Source of the DNA: an uncultured archaeon
Lineage (GTDB): Archaea; Asgardarchaeota; Thorarchaeia; Thorarchaeales; Thorarchaeaceae
DNA: 32,000 bases
Assembly (NCBI GenBank): GCA_964648855.1
Contig: CAZYLT010000017.1
Coordinates: 1-32,000, forward strand
Direction of reading: 5' to 3'
A program made the translations under genes and the position numbers. Positions 9,674 to 17,354 of this stretch are shown piece by piece (within the stretch, counting starts at the first letter, position 1; every line of letters begins with the position of its first letter). Below the pieces are notes generated by a model, which did not search any database, was not told the origin of the DNA, and worked only from the letters and a program-made list of their open reading frames with translations.

Positions 9674-11035
9674 TTAGACAGCCGGAGGAGCTATATCATC
9701 TTCGACTTGAACTCTAACTTCTGATCCTCCCTTGACGGGTTGTCTCACCTTCAGAAGAATTAACAGTGACACAACGAACAAAAAGAGGATACTAAGCAGT
9801 GCATTCCGGTAGGCCATCTCAATTCCGAATCCCATTAGCTGAGACCATGATACAACCGCAGAAAAGATGAACGGACCTAGAATAGCTGCGAACTTGCCAG
9901 TAAATGCAAAGAAGCCAAACATCTCGCTCTTTTTTCGCTCAGGGATATACTGTCCATACATACTTCTTGCCGTGCTTTGCGCTGAGCCCATCCCAACCCC
10001 CGCAATAAGCCCCACGATCCACCATACAATTTGAGAGGTACCGAAGTATGCTATCCCCAAAGCAACGACCCAGATTACAAGTGTGATTATCAGAGTTGGT
10101 TTCGTCTTTATTCTGTCTGCTACGTACCCAAAGATGAAGGCTCCTGGAATTGCTGCCAATTGTGTAACTGCAAAGAAGAGGAGAATGTCAGTTGTGGAAA
10201 ATGCATATACTGTTTCTCCAAATAGCGCTGCGAAATAGATAACTGTCGTAATGGCATTGCTGAAAAGGAAATATGCAACCAGGTAAAGCCGCACCCCTTG
10301 GAAGTCCTTCAATTGTCTTACGGTTCTAGCGATTCTGCTGAACCCAATGGATATGTAGCTCTTGCCAAGTTCATCAGGAGTAGCCGTTGCGGGTCGATCC
10401 TTGAGCCCCCAAATGCTAGGGATAGCGAATACGAGGAAGAACAACGCCCCAAGTAAAAATGGAACTGTTGAATTTGTACCAAATATGGATACGCTGATTA
10501 ATGCGATGATTATGGTCAACATTGCTCCGACATAGCCTGCTGCAAATCCATAGCCTCCAATTCTTCCAATGTTCTCATCGGTGCTAATCTCAGGCAACCA
10601 CGCATTATAGAAGGGGAGTGCTCCCTGAAATCCTATATTGGCTATTATGAATATGACAAAGGTCCACACCCATATAGGAATACCAAATGCATATGAATTT
10701 GGCACAGCAAAGTAAAGGAGGGCATTGAAGTAAACGCAAAGAACTGTATAGAGAATCAAGAATTTCTTCTTTGATCCAGAGTAGTCGGCTATGGCGCCAA
10801 GAATTGGTGATGAGATTGCGATGACAATCATCGTGATGCTCCCAGCGTACCCCCATAGAACCGAACCCATGAAACCTCCATCTTGGAAAGCTTCTGTCAC
10901 GAGGTTTCTGAAATATATTGGAAACAACGCTGTGACCATGAGTACAGTAAAGCTAGTGTTCGCAAAATCATACAAGTACCAAGATATCTGTTCTTTCCTA
11001 TCCGTTGGTATTTCTCGCTCTTCTACCACATTCAT
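9674..11035 (-). CDS. MFS transporter, UMF1/ATG22 family
   Basis: SWYLYDFANTSF, SPILGAIADYSGSKKKF, YNAWLPEI and EMFGFFAFTGKFAAILGP; 12 TM helices. Confidence 0.9.
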   Translation of the reverse strand: MNVVEEREIPTDRKEQISWYLYDFANTSFTVLMVTALFPIYFRNLVTEAFQDGGFMGSVLWGYAGSITMIVIAISSPILGAIADYSGSKKKFLILYTVLCVYFNALLYFAVPNSYAFGIPIWVWTFVIFIIANIGFQGALPFYNAWLPEISTDENIGRIGGYGFAAGYVGAMLTIIIALISVSIFGTNSTVPFLLGALFFLVFAIPSIWGLKDRPATATPDELGKSYISIGFSRIARTVRQLKDFQGVRLYLVAYFLFSNAITTVIYFAALFGETVYAFSTTDILLFFAVTQLAAIPGAFIFGYVADRIKTKPTLIITLVIWVVALGIAYFGTSQIVWWIVGLIAGVGMGSAQSTARSMYGQYIPERKKSEMFGFFAFTGKFAAILGPFIFSAVVSWSQLMGFGIEMAYRNALLSILFLFVVSLLILLKVRQPVKGGSEVRVQVEDDIAPPAV

Positions 11036-11126: not shown

Positions 11127-11870
11127 CTATAGAATCCCCTCTTGTCCCATCCAATCCACTATAGTAGAATTGAATTCTTCATGTTGCTCAAGCATGACAC
11201 TATGGCCTGCTTTAGATATGACTTTCATGGTTGAATTCGGGAATCGGTTATTCATATAGTCAGAGTACTTCACAGGAGTCATCTGGTCGCCTTCTCCAAC
11301 GATAATCAATGTCGGAATCTTGATTCCCGTTGCTTTTTCCATAATATCAAAACAGTCACAAACGTCGAAATCGCGCTCGATGGTCTTTGGGTCGCACTTT
11401 CTTATTTCCTCTTGCGAGCTCTCAATCACCGTTTCTGAGGTGGCTTCATGAAACATGAGTCTACCTGCAGCTTCAACATAACCCTCAAAATCGTTCTCGA
11501 GAAGGTCATATATCATAGGATGGACTCGAAGCCTACATCCAGTACCAACCAATATTATTCCTCTGAGTTCATTGGGGTGCTCAAGTGCATATATCTGTGT
11601 AAGCGCACCTCCCATACTGTGTCCCATCAAAACAGGAAGGTCATACTTCTTGATGATAGAGGCTACGTCCTTCAAATATGAACGAGTCACATTCTGCGCC
11701 TTTCTGTCAGGTGTTTCTCCATGACCATTGAGATCGAGCGCCACACATCTCAGCTTGTGAGATAGATTCTGCAGCTGCATCAACCATGTTAGTGCGGAAC
11801 CACCCGCACCGTGGACCATTATCAGTGTAGGTGCATCCTCGGGTCCACGTTCTTTATAGTGTACCTGCAT
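11127..11870 (-). CDS. Alpha/beta fold hydrolase
   Basis: HGAGG oxyanion motif, DLNGHG, GHSMGG nucleophile, GEGDQMTP and AGHSVMLE. Confidence 0.92.
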   Translation of the reverse strand: MQVHYKERGPEDAPTLIMVHGAGGSALTWLMQLQNLSHKLRCVALDLNGHGETPDRKAQNVTRSYLKDVASIIKKYDLPVLMGHSMGGALTQIYALEHPNELRGIILVGTGCRLRVHPMIYDLLENDFEGYVEAAGRLMFHEATSETVIESSQEEIRKCDPKTIERDFDVCDCFDIMEKATGIKIPTLIIVGEGDQMTPVKYSDYMNNRFPNSTMKVISKAGHSVMLEQHEEFNSTIVDWMGQEGIL

Positions 11871-12015
11871 GACGCCACATCATTCAGAATTCACCTTTCA
11901 AGTTTCCGCTTGGGAGGTCTCGATTCTCGATGGGTTAAGAGCAGCCATGTCTTCCGTATGCTAGGTGTTCTCGGAGCGAGCCTTTTTTAGGGTCTTTTTG
12001 CAATGACTTATGTAT

Positions 12016-12084
12016 GGTCGAGAAGTCTTGTGTATGCAAGACTTGCTTGGCGCGTGTATCTTTCTCGACCTCACGCGCTAGGAG
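12016..12084 (+). promoter_or_regulatory. Structured 5' leader of the nucleoside ABC operon (candidate riboswitch)
   Basis: Three complementary pairs within 67 nt: 12016-24 with 12062-70, 12023-30 with 12037-44, and 12046-56 with 12072-82. The last overlaps the SD GGAG at 12081-84. Confidence 0.5.
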
Positions 12085-12088
12085 ACGA

Positions 12089-13156
12089 ATGAGAATGAGC
12101 TCAAATAGAACAATGCTCGCAGTTGTTGTAGTAATTATCATTGTAGTGGCTGGTGTAGTTGGCATCGTGTTTCTGGGACCGATGCTCTTCCCAAGCGAAC
12201 CGAGAGTAGCTATTGTTTTCGCTACTGGAGGACTAGGGGACAAGTCATTCAATGATGCATGTTACGAAGGAGCAACGCAAGCTGAACAAGAATTCGGGTG
12301 GAGTTTTGACTTTGTAGAACCCACCCAGATCTCTGAGTACGAAGAATTTTTGAGAGACTTCGCTGCTCATGAGGGACGTGAAAACCCGTATGACCTGATT
12401 ATATCAATAGGATTTGATCAGGCAAATGCGCTGAACGAAACAGCTAAAGACTACCCCGATCAGGACTTTGCGATTGTGGATATGGTTGTTGATCAACCGA
12501 ACATAGCCAGTCTTGTTTTCGATGAACATGAAGGTTCAGCTCTAGTCGGCGCTATTGCCGGCATGATGACAGAAACAGACAAGATTGGATTCATTGGCGG
12601 TCTGGACATACCCCTTATCAACAAGTTTGCAGCAGGCTATGTCTTTGGTGCTAATTACACAAATCTAGGCATCAACGCTACTGTAGCTTACACAGGCGAT
12701 TGGGTAGATACAACCGCTGGTCAGAATCTTGCAGATGGTATGTACGCTGGAGGAACTGACATCATCTTTGCGGCAGCGGGACGGTCAGGACTAGGTGTAT
12801 TTACTAGCGCCAAGAACAACAATGATACCTACGAGCATCCACTCTGGGTCATTGGTGTTGACAGTCCACAGATGTATCTTGGCTGTGAAGTCCCCGATAA
12901 CCCCGCACCCCCAACAGTGGGGTTAACCTCCATGCTAAAGCGGGTGGATGTTGCAGTCTATGAAACCATTAAGTCAAAGGTGGAAGGCACTTTCGAGGCC
13001 GGAATCCAAGTGTTTAATCTAGCCAATGGCGGATTAGGTTACGAAGTCAACGAGGACCTCCTTGTTCTACCTGTTGACGTAATCGCTGCAGCTGAAGACC
13101 TGCGTGATGATATCATCGCAGGCGATGTAGAAGTCCCCAGTGCGATTTACTGGTAA
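12089..13156 (+). CDS. BMP-family (PnrA/NupN-like) nucleoside ABC transporter substrate-binding protein, N-terminally membrane-anchored
   Basis: GGLGDKSFND, IGFIGG, DIIFAAAGRSGLGV, IGVDSPQ and TSMLKRVDVAVY. The N-terminal TM helix has no lipobox Cys. GGAG SD precedes ATG 12089/12095. Confidence 0.92.
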   Translation: MRMSSNRTMLAVVVVIIIVVAGVVGIVFLGPMLFPSEPRVAIVFATGGLGDKSFNDACYEGATQAEQEFGWSFDFVEPTQISEYEEFLRDFAAHEGRENPYDLIISIGFDQANALNETAKDYPDQDFAIVDMVVDQPNIASLVFDEHEGSALVGAIAGMMTETDKIGFIGGLDIPLINKFAAGYVFGANYTNLGINATVAYTGDWVDTTAGQNLADGMYAGGTDIIFAAAGRSGLGVFTSAKNNNDTYEHPLWVIGVDSPQMYLGCEVPDNPAPPTVGLTSMLKRVDVAVYETIKSKVEGTFEAGIQVFNLANGGLGYEVNEDLLVLPVDVIAAAEDLRDDIIAGDVEVPSAIYW

Positions 13157-13308: not shown

Positions 13309-14892
13309 ATGTATGCGGTAGAACTTGAGCATATCTCAAAGACGTTTCCAGGCGGTGTAGAGGCAAACAAAGATATCACCTTGAGAATCGAGAAAGGAGA
13401 AGTCCACGGTCTCTTGGGTGAAAATGGCGCAGGAAAAAGCACTCTCATGAACATTCTCTACGGCCTCATATCAAAGGATGAGGGCACTGTCAAAATAAAG
13501 GGAGAAGAAGTCGTCCTTCATTCTCCGCAAGATGCAATTGTCAGAGGTGTTGGAATGGTTCATCAACACTTCAAACTTATCCCCACGCTTACGGTAACTG
13601 AGAATGTTATCCTAGGTCTAGAGCCTGTTCTCACAAAATTTGAAACGGTTGAGGAACGCAGCAAACTCCCATTGAAGCAACTGATACCAACGGATATCAA
13701 GGGTGCTGCCAAGAGGATCCAAGAATTAGGTGACGAGAATGGAATGCAAGTTGACCCGATGGCTAAGATTGAGGATATCTCGGTTGGGCAACAGCAGCGG
13801 GTAGAAATCATAAAGACTCTATACAGAGAGGCGGATATTCTTATTCTTGATGAGCCAACCAGTGTACTTACTCCTCAAGAAGTGGATGAATTATTCGTGA
13901 CTCTTGAACGATTTCGAGAGGCAGGGAGAACCATAATTCTGATTACACATAAGCTACGGGAGCCTTTGGCATTATGTGACCGGATTACAGTCTTGCGAGA
14001 TGGCGAATTAGTTGGCACAGTGAAGACTGAAGATACGTCTCGTGAGGAGTTGGCAAGAATGATGGTGGGAAGAACAGTTATTTTTGAAATAGAAAAAGGC
14101 ACTTGCCAACCTGGTGAGGTCGCTTTGGAAGTAAGAGACCTTATTGTCAAAGACGGCCGAGGCTTAGCGGCAGTAAACGGAATTAGTCTGGAAGTTAGAT
14201 CAGGAGAAATTTTTGGTATTGCAGGCGTGGAGGGCAACGGACAAACTGAACTTGTTGAGGCAATTGCGGGGATCATAGAACCAGCCGCTGGACGAATATT
14301 GGTTGATGGAACTGACCTCACGGGAAAATCTGCAAGGACGATTAGAGATGCAGGTGTAAGCCATATTCCCGAGGATCGCCATAAGCGTGGCTTAGTGTTG
14401 GGTTTTTCCGTCAAAGAGAATCTTACATTGGGTAGGCAGCATCTATCACCTTATGCTACGGGTCCTATGCAGTTACTACTCAATTTTCCTGTAATGTCGC
14501 AAGTGTCTGAAGAATTGGTAGATACATACTCGATTAAGCTATCCGACATTGATGAACCAGCAAGCACATTGTCAGGAGGAAACCAGCAAAAAGTTGTTGC
14601 AGCAAGAGAGCTATCCTCCATGCCCAAGGTGATTCTGGCAGCACAACCCACTAGAGGCCTTGATGTGGGGGCTACGGAATACATTCGCAATGTCTTGGTG
14701 AAAATGAGAGACGAAGGAGTTGCAATCCTATTGGTATCAGCTGAGCTTGAAGAGATAATGAATCTCGCAGATAGGATTGGAGTGATTTACAAAGGCAAAA
14801 TAGTTGCTGAGCGAAGGCCGGAAGAAACTAGCAATGAGGAATTGGGATTGTTGATGGCTGGAGAGAAATCCAACATGAAAGAGGAGGTATAG
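13309..14892 (+). CDS. Nucleoside ABC transporter ATP-binding protein (tandem NBD, NupA/YufO-like)
   Basis: GENGAGKST, LILDEPT, IAGVEGNGQ, LSGGNQQK and QPTRGLDVGA. Confidence 0.95.
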   Translation: MYAVELEHISKTFPGGVEANKDITLRIEKGEVHGLLGENGAGKSTLMNILYGLISKDEGTVKIKGEEVVLHSPQDAIVRGVGMVHQHFKLIPTLTVTENVILGLEPVLTKFETVEERSKLPLKQLIPTDIKGAAKRIQELGDENGMQVDPMAKIEDISVGQQQRVEIIKTLYREADILILDEPTSVLTPQEVDELFVTLERFREAGRTIILITHKLREPLALCDRITVLRDGELVGTVKTEDTSREELARMMVGRTVIFEIEKGTCQPGEVALEVRDLIVKDGRGLAAVNGISLEVRSGEIFGIAGVEGNGQTELVEAIAGIIEPAAGRILVDGTDLTGKSARTIRDAGVSHIPEDRHKRGLVLGFSVKENLTLGRQHLSPYATGPMQLLLNFPVMSQVSEELVDTYSIKLSDIDEPASTLSGGNQQKVVAARELSSMPKVILAAQPTRGLDVGATEYIRNVLVKMRDEGVAILLVSAELEEIMNLADRIGVIYKGKIVAERRPEETSNEELGLLMAGEKSNMKEEV

Positions 14893-14895
14893 ATT

Positions 14896-16395
14896 ATGGA
14901 AGATTCAGCTATGAGTAAGAAACAACCAGGGAAAGACAATCCTAAGCCATTCACCCCCGAGTGGTTCCAAGCAAAAATAATCAATCCATTTCTTACTAAA
15001 CTCAGAGACCCCGAATTCCATAAGCAGGTCGCTGCATCCTTGGGATCTATTGTTCTTGCCATGCTCATTGCAACAGTTGTTATGATCATGGCGGGATATA
15101 ATGCAGGTCTGGCGTTTATCGCTCTCATCAGAGGGGCAATCCTGTCATGGGATAGAGTTCTTTTCAGAGCGACACCGCTAATATTTACCGGCCTCTCTGT
15201 TGCCCTAGCCTTCAAATCTGGGCTTTTCAATATTGGACCCGAAGGTCAGGTCTTCATTGGTGCGATGGCGGCAACTGTTGTTGGATATATGATTGCCCTA
15301 CCAATCGTAATTCATCCTATAGCATCCCTATTTGTAGCAGGTCTGATGGGTGGAATTTGGGGGTTTGTTCCTGGGCTTCTTAAGGCGTATCGTGGTGCTC
15401 ATGAGGTTGTCACGACAATGATGCTTAGTTATACTGCAATACTCCTAACCCACTATCTTGTTGCAGGACCATTTTTGGAGCCAGGTAATGAATATATCCT
15501 CCAAACTCCGCCTATATTTGGTTCTGCCGAACTGCCAAAACTCACAGGCTCATTTCTAAGCTGGGCATTCTTGGTCGGGATACTTGCAGTCATTGCTGTA
15601 GACTTTTTGATCAACCGAACTGTGCTCGGTTACGAGATGAGAGCAGTAGGACTAAATAAGGACGCAGCTGAATATGCCGGCATTAATTCAAAACGCACAA
15701 TGGCACTCTCTTTAGGTTTAGCAGGAGCGCTTGCAGGCATGGGTGGAGCAGGAGAAATTCTGGGGTACCATCATCGGTTTATTGACAATTGGAGCTCGGG
15801 TTTAGGATGGGACGGGATTACCGTTGCTGTACTTGGAGGAAATAACCCTTGGGGGGTTCTTGTGGGCGCAATATTCTTTGGAGCTCTTAAGACTGGAGGA
15901 AACAGCATGCAACGTATTGCGGGTGTTCCTTCTGAGATGGTTAGCGTTATTCAAGGATTGATAGTGGTTTTTGTAGCTGCACCCAGGATAATCAACTGGA
16001 TTTCTGAGAGGGGTGGAGAAGAATTCAACTGGCTAAAACGTTCTCCGCGAGAAGGCGGTCCTCACTTCATAACACTTGGTGTAACGCTTGTGGCATCAAT
16101 CCTTGGTCTTAGCCTACTGGGCTCCATTTCACATACTAGCATGATGGCGGGAATAGTAGTCTTCGTAGCCAGCTTGATTGGCATAGTTGCGTTTGTGTTT
16201 ATGTTTTCAAGGGAGCTGAGAGGACTACAGCTTGCTATCCTATCAGGAATTTTATGGTTTGTAGCGACGCCTATAGGATTCATGGTGGGCAACACTTCAT
16301 TGCTGTTATCCAGCCTGATTCTTGGAGCTATAATGACCGTATTTGGGTTGGTTACAATGATTGGGTACAAAAGTCAATTGGAGGGTGACTCATGA
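14896..16395 (+). CDS. Nucleoside ABC transporter permease 1 (NupB/YufP-like) with a C-terminal TM extension
   Basis: ATPLIFTGLSVALAF, GLFNIGPEGQ, HEVVTTMML, GYEMRAVGLN and GWDGITVAVLG. Confidence 0.92.
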   Translation: MEDSAMSKKQPGKDNPKPFTPEWFQAKIINPFLTKLRDPEFHKQVAASLGSIVLAMLIATVVMIMAGYNAGLAFIALIRGAILSWDRVLFRATPLIFTGLSVALAFKSGLFNIGPEGQVFIGAMAATVVGYMIALPIVIHPIASLFVAGLMGGIWGFVPGLLKAYRGAHEVVTTMMLSYTAILLTHYLVAGPFLEPGNEYILQTPPIFGSAELPKLTGSFLSWAFLVGILAVIAVDFLINRTVLGYEMRAVGLNKDAAEYAGINSKRTMALSLGLAGALAGMGGAGEILGYHHRFIDNWSSGLGWDGITVAVLGGNNPWGVLVGAIFFGALKTGGNSMQRIAGVPSEMVSVIQGLIVVFVAAPRIINWISERGGEEFNWLKRSPREGGPHFITLGVTLVASILGLSLLGSISHTSMMAGIVVFVASLIGIVAFVFMFSRELRGLQLAILSGILWFVATPIGFMVGNTSLLLSSLILGAIMTVFGLVTMIGYKSQLEGDS

Positions 16396-17354
16396 TGCAA
16401 GGAGCAGATGCAACCACGTTTGCACTTATTGGATGGTTGATACGGGCTACATTGCAGATGGCAACACCATTGGTCCTAGCTGCACTTGGAGGGATGTTCA
16501 GTGAGCGTTCAGGTGTTGTAAATATCGGCTTAGAGGGTATGATGTTGGTGGGCGCATTTTCAGCAGTTGCAGTGACCTATTTCACCGACAACCCCTGGTT
16601 TGGCTTTATTGTTGCAATTCTTGCCGGTGGTGCACTTGCTGCGGTTCATGCCATTGTTTGTGTTAAATTCAAAGGAAATCATATTGTGAGCGGGACAGGA
16701 ATAATTCTATTGGGAGCAGGAATAACGACTCTAGGATTGGAACTAGTTTGGGGAATAAAGGGACGGTCAGATGAAGTCTTTGGGTTGCCAAATGTCGTAC
16801 TTCCTCAGATCCAAGGAATCCCCATAATTGGTACCGCCTTTGGTTCTTTGTCTCCTGTAATCTACATGATGTTCATCATGACAGTCGTATGCTGGTATGT
16901 CCTTTACCGAACACCATTCGGTCTGCGATTACGGGCGGCTGGGGAGGATCCCAGTACTCTCGATACTGCCGGGGTAAACGTGGAGTGGTATCGAGCAATC
17001 GGTGTTATTCTAAGTGGATGCCTTGCAGGAATGGGAGGGGCATACCTTTCCATCGGGTTTGAAAATGCATTCGCAAAAGGTATGACGGCCGGAAGAGGTT
17101 TCATTGCATTAGCTGCACTCATATTTGGGAACTGGACACCTATTGGTTGTCTGTTAGCAGGTTTGTTCTTTGGATTCTTATATGGACTGGACTATGCTCT
17201 GCAGCTAACATTAGGGCTTGAGGTCGTTGGAGACTACATCAGCTTTATTCAAATGGTCCCCTATCTTCTTGTCATTGTTGCTTTAGCAGGGATTAGAAGG
17301 TCAATTCCACCAAAATCAGTTGGCGTTCCCTATGAAAAAGAAACGCGTGCATAG
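16392..17354 (+). CDS. Nucleoside ABC transporter permease 2 (NupC/YufQ-like)
   Basis: SERSGVVNIGLEGMML, TPFGLRLRAAGEDP and GRGFIALAALIFGNW; ATGA overlap with the previous gene. Confidence 0.93.
   Translation: MMQGADATTFALIGWLIRATLQMATPLVLAALGGMFSERSGVVNIGLEGMMLVGAFSAVAVTYFTDNPWFGFIVAILAGGALAAVHAIVCVKFKGNHIVSGTGIILLGAGITTLGLELVWGIKGRSDEVFGLPNVVLPQIQGIPIIGTAFGSLSPVIYMMFIMTVVCWYVLYRTPFGLRLRAAGEDPSTLDTAGVNVEWYRAIGVILSGCLAGMGGAYLSIGFENAFAKGMTAGRGFIALAALIFGNWTPIGCLLAGLFFGFLYGLDYALQLTLGLEVVGDYISFIQMVPYLLVIVALAGIRRSIPPKSVGVPYEKETRA

What the first reader, a model, noticed from the sequence alone, without database searches (positions are those of the whole stretch)
12016..12097. Candidate Asgard riboswitch: switchable RNA structure occluding the SD of a nucleoside ABC transporter
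Seen: within 67 nt there are three helices. P1 is GGTCGAGAA (12016-24) with TTCTCGACC (12062-70), 9 perfect bp. P2 is AAGTCTTG (12023-30) with CAAGACTT (12037-44), 8 perfect bp. P3 is CTTGGCGCGTG (12046-56) with CACGCGCTAGG (12072-82), 11 bp including 2 G-U pairs. P1 and P3 are interleaved (pseudoknot topology) with only 1 nt between their 3' strands, so they are probably competing conformations. P3 pairs the GG of the GGAG SD just before ATG 12089. TTCTCG (12062-67) could also pair with TGAGAA (12090-95) over the start codon. Established: bacterial BMP/Nup transporters are common targets of purine-class riboswitches, while very few riboswitches are known in archaea. Inference: a translational on/off switch, possibly sensing a nucleoside or nucleotide. 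It does not match the purine riboswitch consensus as I recall it.
Basis: partly seen in the sequence, partly recalled or inferred. Interest (0 to 1): 0.85.

Follow-up and report, generated by a model that had tools for sequence, protein, structure and literature searches.

The report
Structured mRNA leader of Thorarchaeota nucleoside transporter
The three helices are real and belong to a conserved, folded ~80-nt leader in front of a nucleoside-uptake operon of an Asgard (Thorarchaeota) archaeon, probably a two-state control of translation, but nothing shows that it senses a metabolite as a riboswitch would.

Summary
P1, P2 and P3 lie exactly where stated, upstream of a Bmp/PnrA substrate-binding gene followed by an ABC ATPase and two permeases.

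A TATA box (11983-11990) sits 85-112 nt before the start codon in nearly all orthologous loci of this family. The motif GUCGA (P1 5' strand) lies 29-34 nt after the TATA box in 17 leaders, so P1 probably involves the very 5' end of the mRNA.

- **Core:** P1 (GUCGA/UCGAC) plus an inner hairpin is kept in at least 8 genus-level lineages.
- **Distribution:** a covariance model finds it once per genome, always before bmp, only in this family. Rfam has no match.
- **Selection:** against the same-genus genome the leader is 93% identical, versus 64-66% for flanking non-coding DNA. Five of the six changes fall in loops or linkers; the sixth is an end pair of P1.
- **P3:** it competes sterically with P1 and pairs half of the Shine-Dalgarno sequence (SD), but is significant only in this genus and its nearest neighbour.
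- **Against a riboswitch:** loops and junctions are not conserved, and SD accessibility is no lower than in shuffled controls.

Verdict: a new lineage-restricted cis-acting leader RNA, probably a P1(ON)/P3(OFF) element. A riboswitch is possible (about 0.13) but unsupported.

The parts
11983..11990 (+). TATA box TTTTTTAG of the bmp operon promoter
   Evidence: A TATA-like motif lies 85-112 nt before the start codon in nearly all orthologous loci. Region 11976-11991 is 94% identical to the same-genus genome, while its flanks are 64-66%.
12013..12016 (+). Predicted transcription start (inferred, not mapped)
   Evidence: GUCGA begins 29-34 nt after the TATA start in 17 leaders whose spacers are otherwise unconserved. 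An archaeal TATA box centred near -26/-27 is my own knowledge; promoter elements are described in PMC7289017.
12016..12024 (+). P1 5' strand (GGUCGAGAA), probably the 5' end of the mRNA
   Evidence: the core GUCGA/UCGAC is paired in 12-13 of 13 leaders from 7 genera. G-U replacements occur in genus g3.
12023..12044 (+). P2 hairpin (AAGUCUUG / CAAGACUU, loop 12031-36)
   Evidence: The orthologous hairpin covaries: 4 of 9 pairs have compensatory changes, and G-U pairs are present. Three of its 6 loop positions differ in the same-genus genome.
12046..12056 (+). P3 5' strand
   Evidence: No substitutions against the same-genus genome.
12062..12070 (+). P1 3' strand (UUCUCGACC), lying in the loop of P3
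   Evidence: UCGAC lies 5-12 nt before the SD in all P1-class leaders.
12072..12082 (+). P3 3' strand, running into the SD
12081..12084 (+). Shine-Dalgarno GGAG (first two bases paired in P3)
   Evidence: AGGAG is conserved 9-12 nt before the conserved ATG in orthologues.
12095..13156 (+). bmp gene: membrane-anchored Bmp/PnrA-like substrate-binding protein. The conserved start is ATG 12095; ATG 12089 is not conserved.
   Evidence: PF02608, E = 6.5e-57. N-termini of orthologues. Sources name the homologues as BMP family proteins of Candidatus Thorarchaeota.
13309..17354 (+). Rest of the operon: tandem ABC ATPase (13309-14892) and two permeases (14896-16395, 16392-17354)
   Evidence: PF00005 and PF02653.

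Best explanation
This is a selectively maintained, lineage-restricted structured 5' leader RNA (about 80 nt) of the bmp nucleoside-type ABC importer operon of a Thorarchaeota archaeon.

Transcription most probably starts at 12013-16, 30-33 nt after the conserved TATA box. The extreme 5' end (GUCGA...) would then pair with UCGAC about 10 nt before the SD (P1), enclosing hairpin P2. This P1+P2 core is shared by at least 8 genus-level lineages.

In this genus and its nearest neighbour a GC-rich helix P3 has been added. Its loop holds the P1 3' strand and its 3' strand runs into the SD. P1+P2 (SD free) and P2+P3 (half of the SD paired) therefore exclude each other and are nearly isoenergetic.

I take it to be a two-state leader that sets translation initiation. 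P1 forms first during transcription and is the ON state; P3 is the thermodynamic OFF state. The factor that shifts the balance (protein, small RNA, metabolite, or simply folding kinetics and decay) is unidentified.

Shown: the helices, their conservation, purifying selection, single-gene association, and absence from Rfam. Inferred: the TSS, the mutual exclusion, and the effect on translation.
For: Gene context and promoter:
- Helices and gene context.
- TATA box 85-112 nt upstream in nearly all orthologous loci.
- GUCGA fixed at 29-34 nt from the TATA box.

Conservation of the core:
- The RNAalifold consensus of 13 leaders from 7 genera is P1, with G-U and some compensatory changes.
- P1 is paired in 89.5% of cells, against 27-43% when the partner is slid (that alignment was fitted to the model).
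- P1a-P1b span varies from 37 to 55 nt, which fits an RNA helix and not a dimeric DNA site.
- P2 covaries.
- CM R1 gives one hit per genome in 14 of 86 family genomes, all abutting bmp, and none in 125 genomes of 26 other families. The next-best hit in the own genome has E = 1.7.

Selection (against the same-genus genome):
- Leader 75/81 identical, against 64% for the spacer, 66% upstream, and 72% at third codon positions.
- p = 4e-6 and 1.5e-4 for those comparisons. Substitutions are 1 of 54 at paired and 5 of 27 at unpaired positions, p = 0.014.

Family-wide structure:
- Mean folding z = -2.23 over 52 leaders, against -0.46 and -0.67 for flanking controls.

P3 and the two states:
- P3 is significant in g1 (p about 0.001-0.01) and in g8 (p = 0.001-0.003), where its sequence differs.
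- Ensemble energies are -26.6 kcal/mol (P1 forced) and -28.2 kcal/mol (P1a blocked) in the window. Forcing P1 opens the SD in all 16 leaders tested.
Against: - The P1/P3 competition is not conserved beyond two genera.
- P3 covers only 2 of the 4 SD bases.
- Equilibrium SD accessibility in the window (0.34) is ordinary against shuffled upstream sequence (27th percentile). Family-wide it is 0.42 against 0.43. The SD-to-ATG region is if anything more open than in shuffles.
- The increase in SD opening when P1 is forced may be partly generic.
- P1 is conserved mainly in sequence, so true covariation is weak.
- The TSS is not mapped and expression data could not be obtained.
- The compared genomes are related, so the counts overstate independence.
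Confidence: 0.5

Rival explanations
1. A true metabolite riboswitch. The P1-closed domain (P2 plus the 15-19-nt J2/1 strand carrying an RYGUGK motif) would bind a nucleoside, base or related metabolite. That would stabilise P1, prevent P3, and turn translation of the importer on.
For: - The architecture resembles a translational riboswitch: a closing helix P1 whose 3' strand is shared with an alternative helix next to the SD.
- The two states are nearly isoenergetic in g1, g8 and the L084/L089 group.
- A moderately conserved RYGUGK motif lies in J2/1 of g1, g8, L035, L084, L088 and L089.
- There is strong purifying selection.
- Purine riboswitches do control nucleoside and purine transporters in Bacillus (PMC5393184).
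Against: - No Rfam family matches the window or 20 orthologous leaders.
- No unpaired core is conserved across the P1 class, and junction lengths vary 5-19 and 0-12 nt.
- The P2 loop and linkers change between congeners while the stems do not, the opposite of a binding pocket.
- Leaders of the same gene in sister genera have unrelated folds.
- The element is found before one gene only and in one family only.
Confidence: 0.13
2. A constitutive structural leader. A 5'-terminal helix and hairpins would protect the mRNA from 5'-end-dependent decay and keep the ribosome-binding site insulated and open, with no switching.
For: - Every leader class of this gene in the family is strongly folded, although the folds differ.
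- The 5' end is base-paired in the P1 class.
- The SD-to-ATG region is slightly more accessible than with shuffled leaders (mean percentile 0.68).
- In 11 of 16 P1-class leaders the P1 state is clearly favoured.
Against: - In the window and its congener the MFE state lacks P1 and leaves the 5' end free.
- All 22 nt of the competing helix P3 are unchanged between the congeners.
- P3 is recreated with a different sequence in g8, which is hard to explain if only 5' protection mattered.
- Some classes fully pair GGAG with a CUCC anti-SD.
Confidence: 0.25
3. DNA-level operators. The perfect P2 palindrome (+10 to +31) and/or the GTCGA motifs at the TSS would be binding sites of a transcription repressor, and the RNA pairing would be incidental.
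For: - P2 is a perfect 8-6-8 palindrome just downstream of the predicted TSS.
- GTCGA is conserved in sequence rather than covarying.
- Archaeal repressors often bind over the TSS (own knowledge).
Against: - Orthologous P2 and P1 contain G-U pairs, which are mismatches in DNA.
- P3 has two conserved G-U pairs.
- P1a-P1b spacing varies from 37 to 55 nt.
- The half-site palindrome AGTCTTG..CAAGACT occurs only once in the genome, and GTCGA follows no other strong TATA-like site.
Confidence: 0.07
4. Not an RNA element: either chance complementarity, or a coding N-terminal extension read from ATG 12014, which is in frame and open up to bmp.
For: - The frame is open from ATG 12014 in this genome and in its congener.
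- ATG 12014 coincides with the predicted TSS, so leaderless initiation is conceivable.
Against: - Of the 5 codons that differ between the congeners, 4 are non-synonymous.
- Other genera have stop codons just upstream of the conserved MSSN start.
- Conservation and folding statistics exclude chance.
Confidence: 0.03

Closest known systems
Purine (guanine/adenine) riboswitch, Rfam RF00167, and 2'-dG variants
   Same: A cis-acting 5' leader closed by a helix P1 in front of purine or nucleoside uptake genes. In Bacillus these riboswitches control nupC, pbuG and xpt-pbuX (PMC5393184).
   Different: - No covariance-model match even at E = 10.
- No three-way junction with kissing loops and no conserved junction nucleotides.
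- The bacterial examples mostly act by transcription termination; here there is no terminator.
H-type pseudoknot translational riboswitches (preQ1-I, SAM-II, fluoride)
   Same: Interleaved helices in which the second helix reaches the SD. The size is small.
   Different: - The linker between the P1 3' strand and the P3 3' strand is 1 nt and cannot cross a 9-bp helix, so the helices compete rather than coexist.
- There is no A-rich L3.
- No Rfam match.
SD-masking bistable leaders and RNA thermometers (ROSE, fourU)
   Same: A helix next to or over the SD whose formation depends on an alternative pairing. The action would be translational.
   Different: - Only 2 of 4 SD bases are paired, and accessibility is not below shuffled controls.
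- No fourU or ROSE sequence signature.
- The competitor is a 5'-terminal helix.
5'-terminal stabiliser stem-loops of bacterial mRNAs (for example the ompA 5' UTR; own knowledge)
   Same: The first nucleotides of the transcript are base-paired, and the leader is long and folded.
   Different: In the window the most stable fold leaves the 5' end unpaired. The partner of the 5' end lies about 45 nt away, next to the SD, not in a local hairpin.
Known archaeal riboswitches (TPP, fluoride; own knowledge)
   Same: An archaeal cis-regulatory leader in front of a transporter.
   Different: Those classes are ancient and widely distributed, with invariant cores. This element is confined to one family of Thorarchaeota and evolves quickly.

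Membership tests
Purine riboswitch (RF00167) | Scores at or above the Rfam gathering threshold | tested here: not met
   No family reaches gathering in the 32-kb window. No riboswitch family appears at E up to 10 in 11850-12200. None in 20 orthologous leaders.
Purine riboswitch (RF00167) | Three-way junction P1-P2-P3 with an L2/L3 loop-loop contact and a conserved junction core | tested here: not met
   P1 encloses one hairpin plus a single strand, and P3 is interleaved with P1. The P2 loop changes at 3 of 6 positions between congeners.
H-type pseudoknot riboswitches (preQ1-I, SAM-II, fluoride) | Both helices can form at once, with loops long enough to cross the grooves | tested here: not met
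   The L3 equivalent is 1 nt (12071) against a 9-bp P1, and the connecting strand is taken up by the stable P2 (geometric argument, inferred).
Riboswitch (generic) | Aptamer helices conserved, with covariation | tested here: inconclusive
   P1 is kept in 7-8 genera, but mostly by sequence identity plus G-U changes. P2 covaries in one subgroup.
Riboswitch (generic) | Highly conserved unpaired nucleotides forming a ligand pocket | tested here: not met
   Junction lengths are 5-19 and 0-12 nt and their sequences differ. Unpaired positions evolve faster than paired ones (5/27 against 1/54).
Riboswitch (generic) | Alternative expression-platform pairing coupled to P1 | tested here: inconclusive
   Present and significant in g1 and g8, borderline in L019 and L011, absent in the other P1-class lineages.
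Riboswitch (generic) | Specific binding of a small molecule that changes the fold | not testable with these tools
   Needs in-line probing, SHAPE or ITC.
SD-sequestering translational leader | SD less accessible than expected in the repressed or ground state | tested here: inconclusive
   The window has SD unpaired probability 0.34 against 0.44 for shuffled upstream sequence (27th percentile). Family mean is 0.42 against 0.43. With P1a blocked it is 0.47, against 0.72 with P1 forced.
5'-terminal mRNA stabiliser | Transcript 5' end base-paired within a few nucleotides | tested here: inconclusive
   Predicted from the constant TATA-to-GUCGA distance of 29-34 nt. The TSS is not mapped, and the window's MFE fold lacks P1.
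DNA operator palindrome | Exact inverted repeat at fixed spacing, recurring at other promoters of a regulon | tested here: not met
   G-U pairs occur in orthologues. Spacing is 37-55 nt. The palindrome is unique in the genome.

The most novel reading that the evidence does not exclude
The P1-P2-J2/1 domain would be the aptamer of a new riboswitch class native to Asgard archaea. It would sense a nucleoside or a product of nucleoside catabolism and switch on translation of the importer by locking P1 against the SD-masking helix P3.
Probability: 0.12. Interest if true: 0.85.

Novelty: new variant of a known kind. Interest (0 to 1): 0.5.

Why it matters
My literature searches found no paper on cis-regulatory RNA or riboswitches in Asgard archaea. 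This is a concrete leader that is comparatively supported and under strong purifying selection, in front of what is probably the route by which Thorarchaeota take up nucleosides. The review PMC6646929 holds that Asgard archaea feed salvaged nucleosides into central carbon metabolism through type III/IV RuBisCO.

It gives a short RNA (about 85 nt) with two defined, mutually exclusive folds that can be probed in vitro without cultivating the organism.

It also shows that orthologous leaders of one gene can keep 'being folded' as the conserved property while the fold itself turns over between genera. That is a caution for riboswitch hunting by structure alone.

Tried and rejected
- **JGI metagenome contigs:** the scan for close relatives of the protein found only distant Bmp proteins. 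Closer leaders came from eight look-ups of homologous proteins.
- **Second copy or regulon in the own genome:**
  - GGTCGAGA occurs 89 times, about the chance expectation.
  - AGTC...GACT palindromes number seven and are unrelated.
  - A P1-SD-ATG pattern scan gave only the bmp leader with a TATA box, plus one weak look-alike before a DMT-type transporter.
  - The CM search gave one hit; the next had E = 1.7.
- **Genome-wide TATA-to-ATG distances,** to judge whether 80-nt leaders are unusual: too few and too noisy, so no claim is made.
- **MAFFT alignment across subgroups:** it shifted the P1 3' strand by one column, so P1 counts rest on A1/A4 and on manual segmentation.
- **Coding reading from ATG 12014:** rejected on the substitution pattern.
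- **Earlier notes of this scan:** nothing on this element.

Full report
**1. Observation**

- P1 is 12016-24 with 12062-70, 9 bp.
- P2 is 12023-30 with 12037-44, 8 bp.
- P3 is 12046-56 with 12072-82, 11 bp with two G-U pairs.
- GGAG is at 12081-84.

P1 and P2 overlap by two bases. The minimum-free-energy fold of 12010-12100 is P2+P3 at -30.1 kcal/mol, z = -2.17, equalled by 4 of 200 dinucleotide shuffles. From the predicted start of the transcript to the ATG, z is about -3.0.

The downstream gene is a Bmp/PnrA-type substrate-binding protein (PF02608, 6.5e-57). It is followed by a tandem ABC ATPase and two permeases. An alpha/beta hydrolase is transcribed divergently upstream. Public sources name the closest homologues BMP family proteins of Candidatus Thorarchaeota.

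**2. Start codon and coding potential**

The frame is open from ATG 12014. However, orthologues start at the motif MSSN, which corresponds to ATG 12095, and several have a stop codon directly before it. The same-genus genome G001 has AAG in place of ATG 12089.

Between the two congeners five codons of the putative extension differ, four of them non-synonymously. The stretch 12014-12094 is therefore a non-coding leader.

**3. Promoter and 5' end**

In about 60 orthologous loci from 86 genomes of the family a TATA box (TTTTTTAG, TTTTTTAA or TTTTAAG) lies 85-112 nt before the start codon. A long leader is thus conserved.

In the window the TATA box is at 11983-90.

In 17 leaders the motif GUCGA, which is the P1 5' strand, begins 29-34 nt after the first T of the TATA box, although the spacer itself is unconserved. 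An archaeal TATA box is centred near -26/-27 (own knowledge; promoter elements in PMC7289017). That places the transcription start at about 12013-16, so the P1 5' strand would be the very 5' end of the mRNA. This step is inferred. Expression data could not be obtained.

**4. What is conserved**

A MAFFT/RNAalifold analysis of 13 leaders from seven genera returns P1 as the only consensus helix.
- The five core pairs GUCGA/UCGAC are kept in 12-13 of 13 sequences.
- Genus g3 shows U-A to U-G and C-G to U-G changes.
- The two inner pairs show some compensatory changes.

On a model-fitted alignment of 24 rows, 89.5% of cells pair, against 27-43% when the partner is slid by 1-3 columns. Covariation proper is weak because the helix is mostly invariant.

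The distance between the two strands varies from 37 to 55 nt. This, together with the G-U pairs, argues for an RNA helix and against a dimeric DNA site.

The enclosed hairpin P2 covaries in the subgroup L035/L084/L088/L089/L026/L027, where 4 of 9 pairs have compensatory changes.

A covariance model of the P1 class (R1) gave these results:
- One hit per genome in 14 of 86 family genomes, each directly upstream of the bmp orthologue.
- No hit in 125 genomes of 26 other families of the phylum.
- In the window's own genome, one hit at E = 6.8e-13; the next best has E = 1.7.

Rfam has no match for the window or for 20 orthologous leaders.

**5. Selection**

Identity against the same-genus genome:

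| Region | Identity |
|---|---|
| Leader 12014-12094 | 93% (75/81) |
| TATA-to-TSS spacer | 64% |
| Intergenic DNA upstream of the TATA box | 66% |
| bmp coding sequence | 88% (42 of 52 differences at third codon positions) |

The leader differs less than the non-coding flanks (p = 4e-6) and less than third codon positions (p = 1.5e-4).

The six substitutions are at 12032, 12033 and 12036 (P2 loop), 12061 (linker), 12062 (the end pair of P1) and 12090. That is 1 of 54 paired positions against 5 of 27 unpaired positions (p = 0.014). All three helices, including both competitors P1 and P3, are therefore under constraint, while the loops are nearly free.

**6. P3 and the switch idea**

The P1 3' strand lies in the loop of P3, with 5 nt before it and 1 nt after it. 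With P2 folded, a pseudoknot containing full P1 and full P3 is sterically implausible (geometric inference). The states are therefore P1+P2 and P2+P3.

Constrained folding gives:

| Leader | P1 forced (kcal/mol) | P1 5' strand blocked (kcal/mol) |
|---|---|---|
| Window (g1) | -26.6 | -28.2 |
| L002 (genus g8) | -27.3 | -24.5 |

In the window the SD unpaired probability is 0.72 with P1 forced and 0.47 with P1a blocked. In all 16 P1-class leaders tested, forcing P1 leaves the SD more open.

However, a helix bracketing the P1 3' strand is better than shuffles only in some lineages:
- g1: p about 0.001-0.01.
- g8: p = 0.001-0.003, with a partly different sequence and a lower stem ACUC/GAGU over the SD.
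- L019 and L011: borderline.
- All other P1-class lineages: not significant.

**7. Is the SD masked?**

I shuffled everything upstream of the SD and kept the rest. Native leaders do not have a less accessible SD: the family mean is 0.42 against 0.43, and the window is 0.34 against 0.44 (27th percentile). The SD-to-ATG region is slightly more open than in shuffles (mean percentile 0.68).

SD occlusion is therefore not a family-wide selected property. It does occur in particular leader classes. For example, the g2 class pairs GGAG fully with an invariant CUCC.

**8. Family-wide picture**

All leader classes of this gene are strongly folded.
- 52 leaders: mean z = -2.23, with 62% below -2.
- Equal-length segments upstream of the TATA box: mean z = -0.46.
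- Equal-length segments inside the coding sequence: mean z = -0.67.

The folds themselves differ between genera. Junction lengths inside the P1 domain range from 5 to 19 nt and from 0 to 12 nt, with no common unpaired core. The only shared feature is a moderately conserved RYGUGK in J2/1 of g1, g8 and the L035/L084 group.

**9. Interpretation**

The element is a real, new, lineage-restricted cis-acting leader RNA.

For the window the best reading is a two-state translational control element. P1, formed first during transcription, gives an open SD. P3, thermodynamically favoured, pairs half of the SD. The trigger is unknown (confidence 0.5).

| Rival reading | Probability | Main reasons |
|---|---|---|
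| Metabolite riboswitch | about 0.13 | Not excluded, but there is no conserved pocket, loops evolve freely, folds turn over between sister genera, and it is tied to one gene in one family |
| Constitutive stabilising or insulating leader | about 0.25 | Fits the family-wide data but not the conserved competitor P3 |
| DNA operators | about 0.07 | Disfavoured by G-U pairs, variable spacing and uniqueness in the genome |

Purine riboswitches control nucleoside and purine transporters in Bacillus (PMC5393184). I could not verify from the library that they commonly control BMP-type systems.

**10. Limits**

- The genomes are related, so the counts are not independent.
- Alignment A4 is fitted to the model.
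- The TSS, the mutual exclusion and any effect on translation are inferred, not shown.

Noticed in passing
window 12014-12094: ATG 12014 coincides with the predicted transcription start and is in frame with bmp, with no stop codon, in both this genome and the same-genus genome. A leaderless N-terminally extended product (MVEKSC...) is formally possible, but 4 of the 5 changed codons are non-synonymous.
   Followed up: partly
window 12089-12097: The gene start is probably ATG 12095 (conserved MSSN) and not ATG 12089, which is AAG in the congener. GGAG-to-ATG spacing is then 10 nt, as in the orthologues.
   Followed up: yes
L066-L071 (leaders of genus g2 bmp genes): A different leader class for the same gene. 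It has a hairpin AAACGC...GCGUUU with a covarying top, then an invariant CUCC that pairs fully with the SD GGAG around a CUAAC/GUUAG mini-hairpin.
   Followed up: partly
L018, L033, L038, L042, L044, L046, L056, L057 (genus g5): A third leader class. It has a covarying 5' hairpin plus an invariant GGUUC-N7-GAACC hairpin, and the SD is left free.
   Followed up: partly
own genome, contig C13 about 10630-10706 (+): A weak look-alike, GUUGAA ... UUCGGC enclosing a UGCGG/CCGCA hairpin, lies before a 299-aa multi-pass membrane protein (DMT/EamA-like by eye). The CM search at E up to 5 did not pick it up, so it is probably chance.
   Followed up: partly
L090 (JGI contig) 401-424: The called start of this Bmp orthologue lies inside the leader (ATGTTAGGAG...), so the SD is annotated as coding. 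The conserved MSSS start is 18 nt downstream.
   Followed up: no
L059 (G052): This orthologue has TTG at the conserved start position behind GAGGTAGAGAGAAAA. That fits the scan's earlier notes on non-ATG starts in this lineage only in a general way.
   Followed up: no
L030, L040, L049-L053, L023 (paralogous Bmp genes): A paralogue group carries long Thr/Pro-rich linkers (runs of up to about 16 T residues) between the membrane anchor and the Bmp domain. These look like glycosylated stalks.
   Followed up: no
window 11127-11870 (-) and L083, L088, L089: The divergently transcribed alpha/beta hydrolase is a conserved neighbour of bmp in three metagenomic contigs, with a similar intergenic distance of about 190 nt. 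L084 has a divergent gene at the same position, but no Pfam family is on record for it.
   Followed up: no
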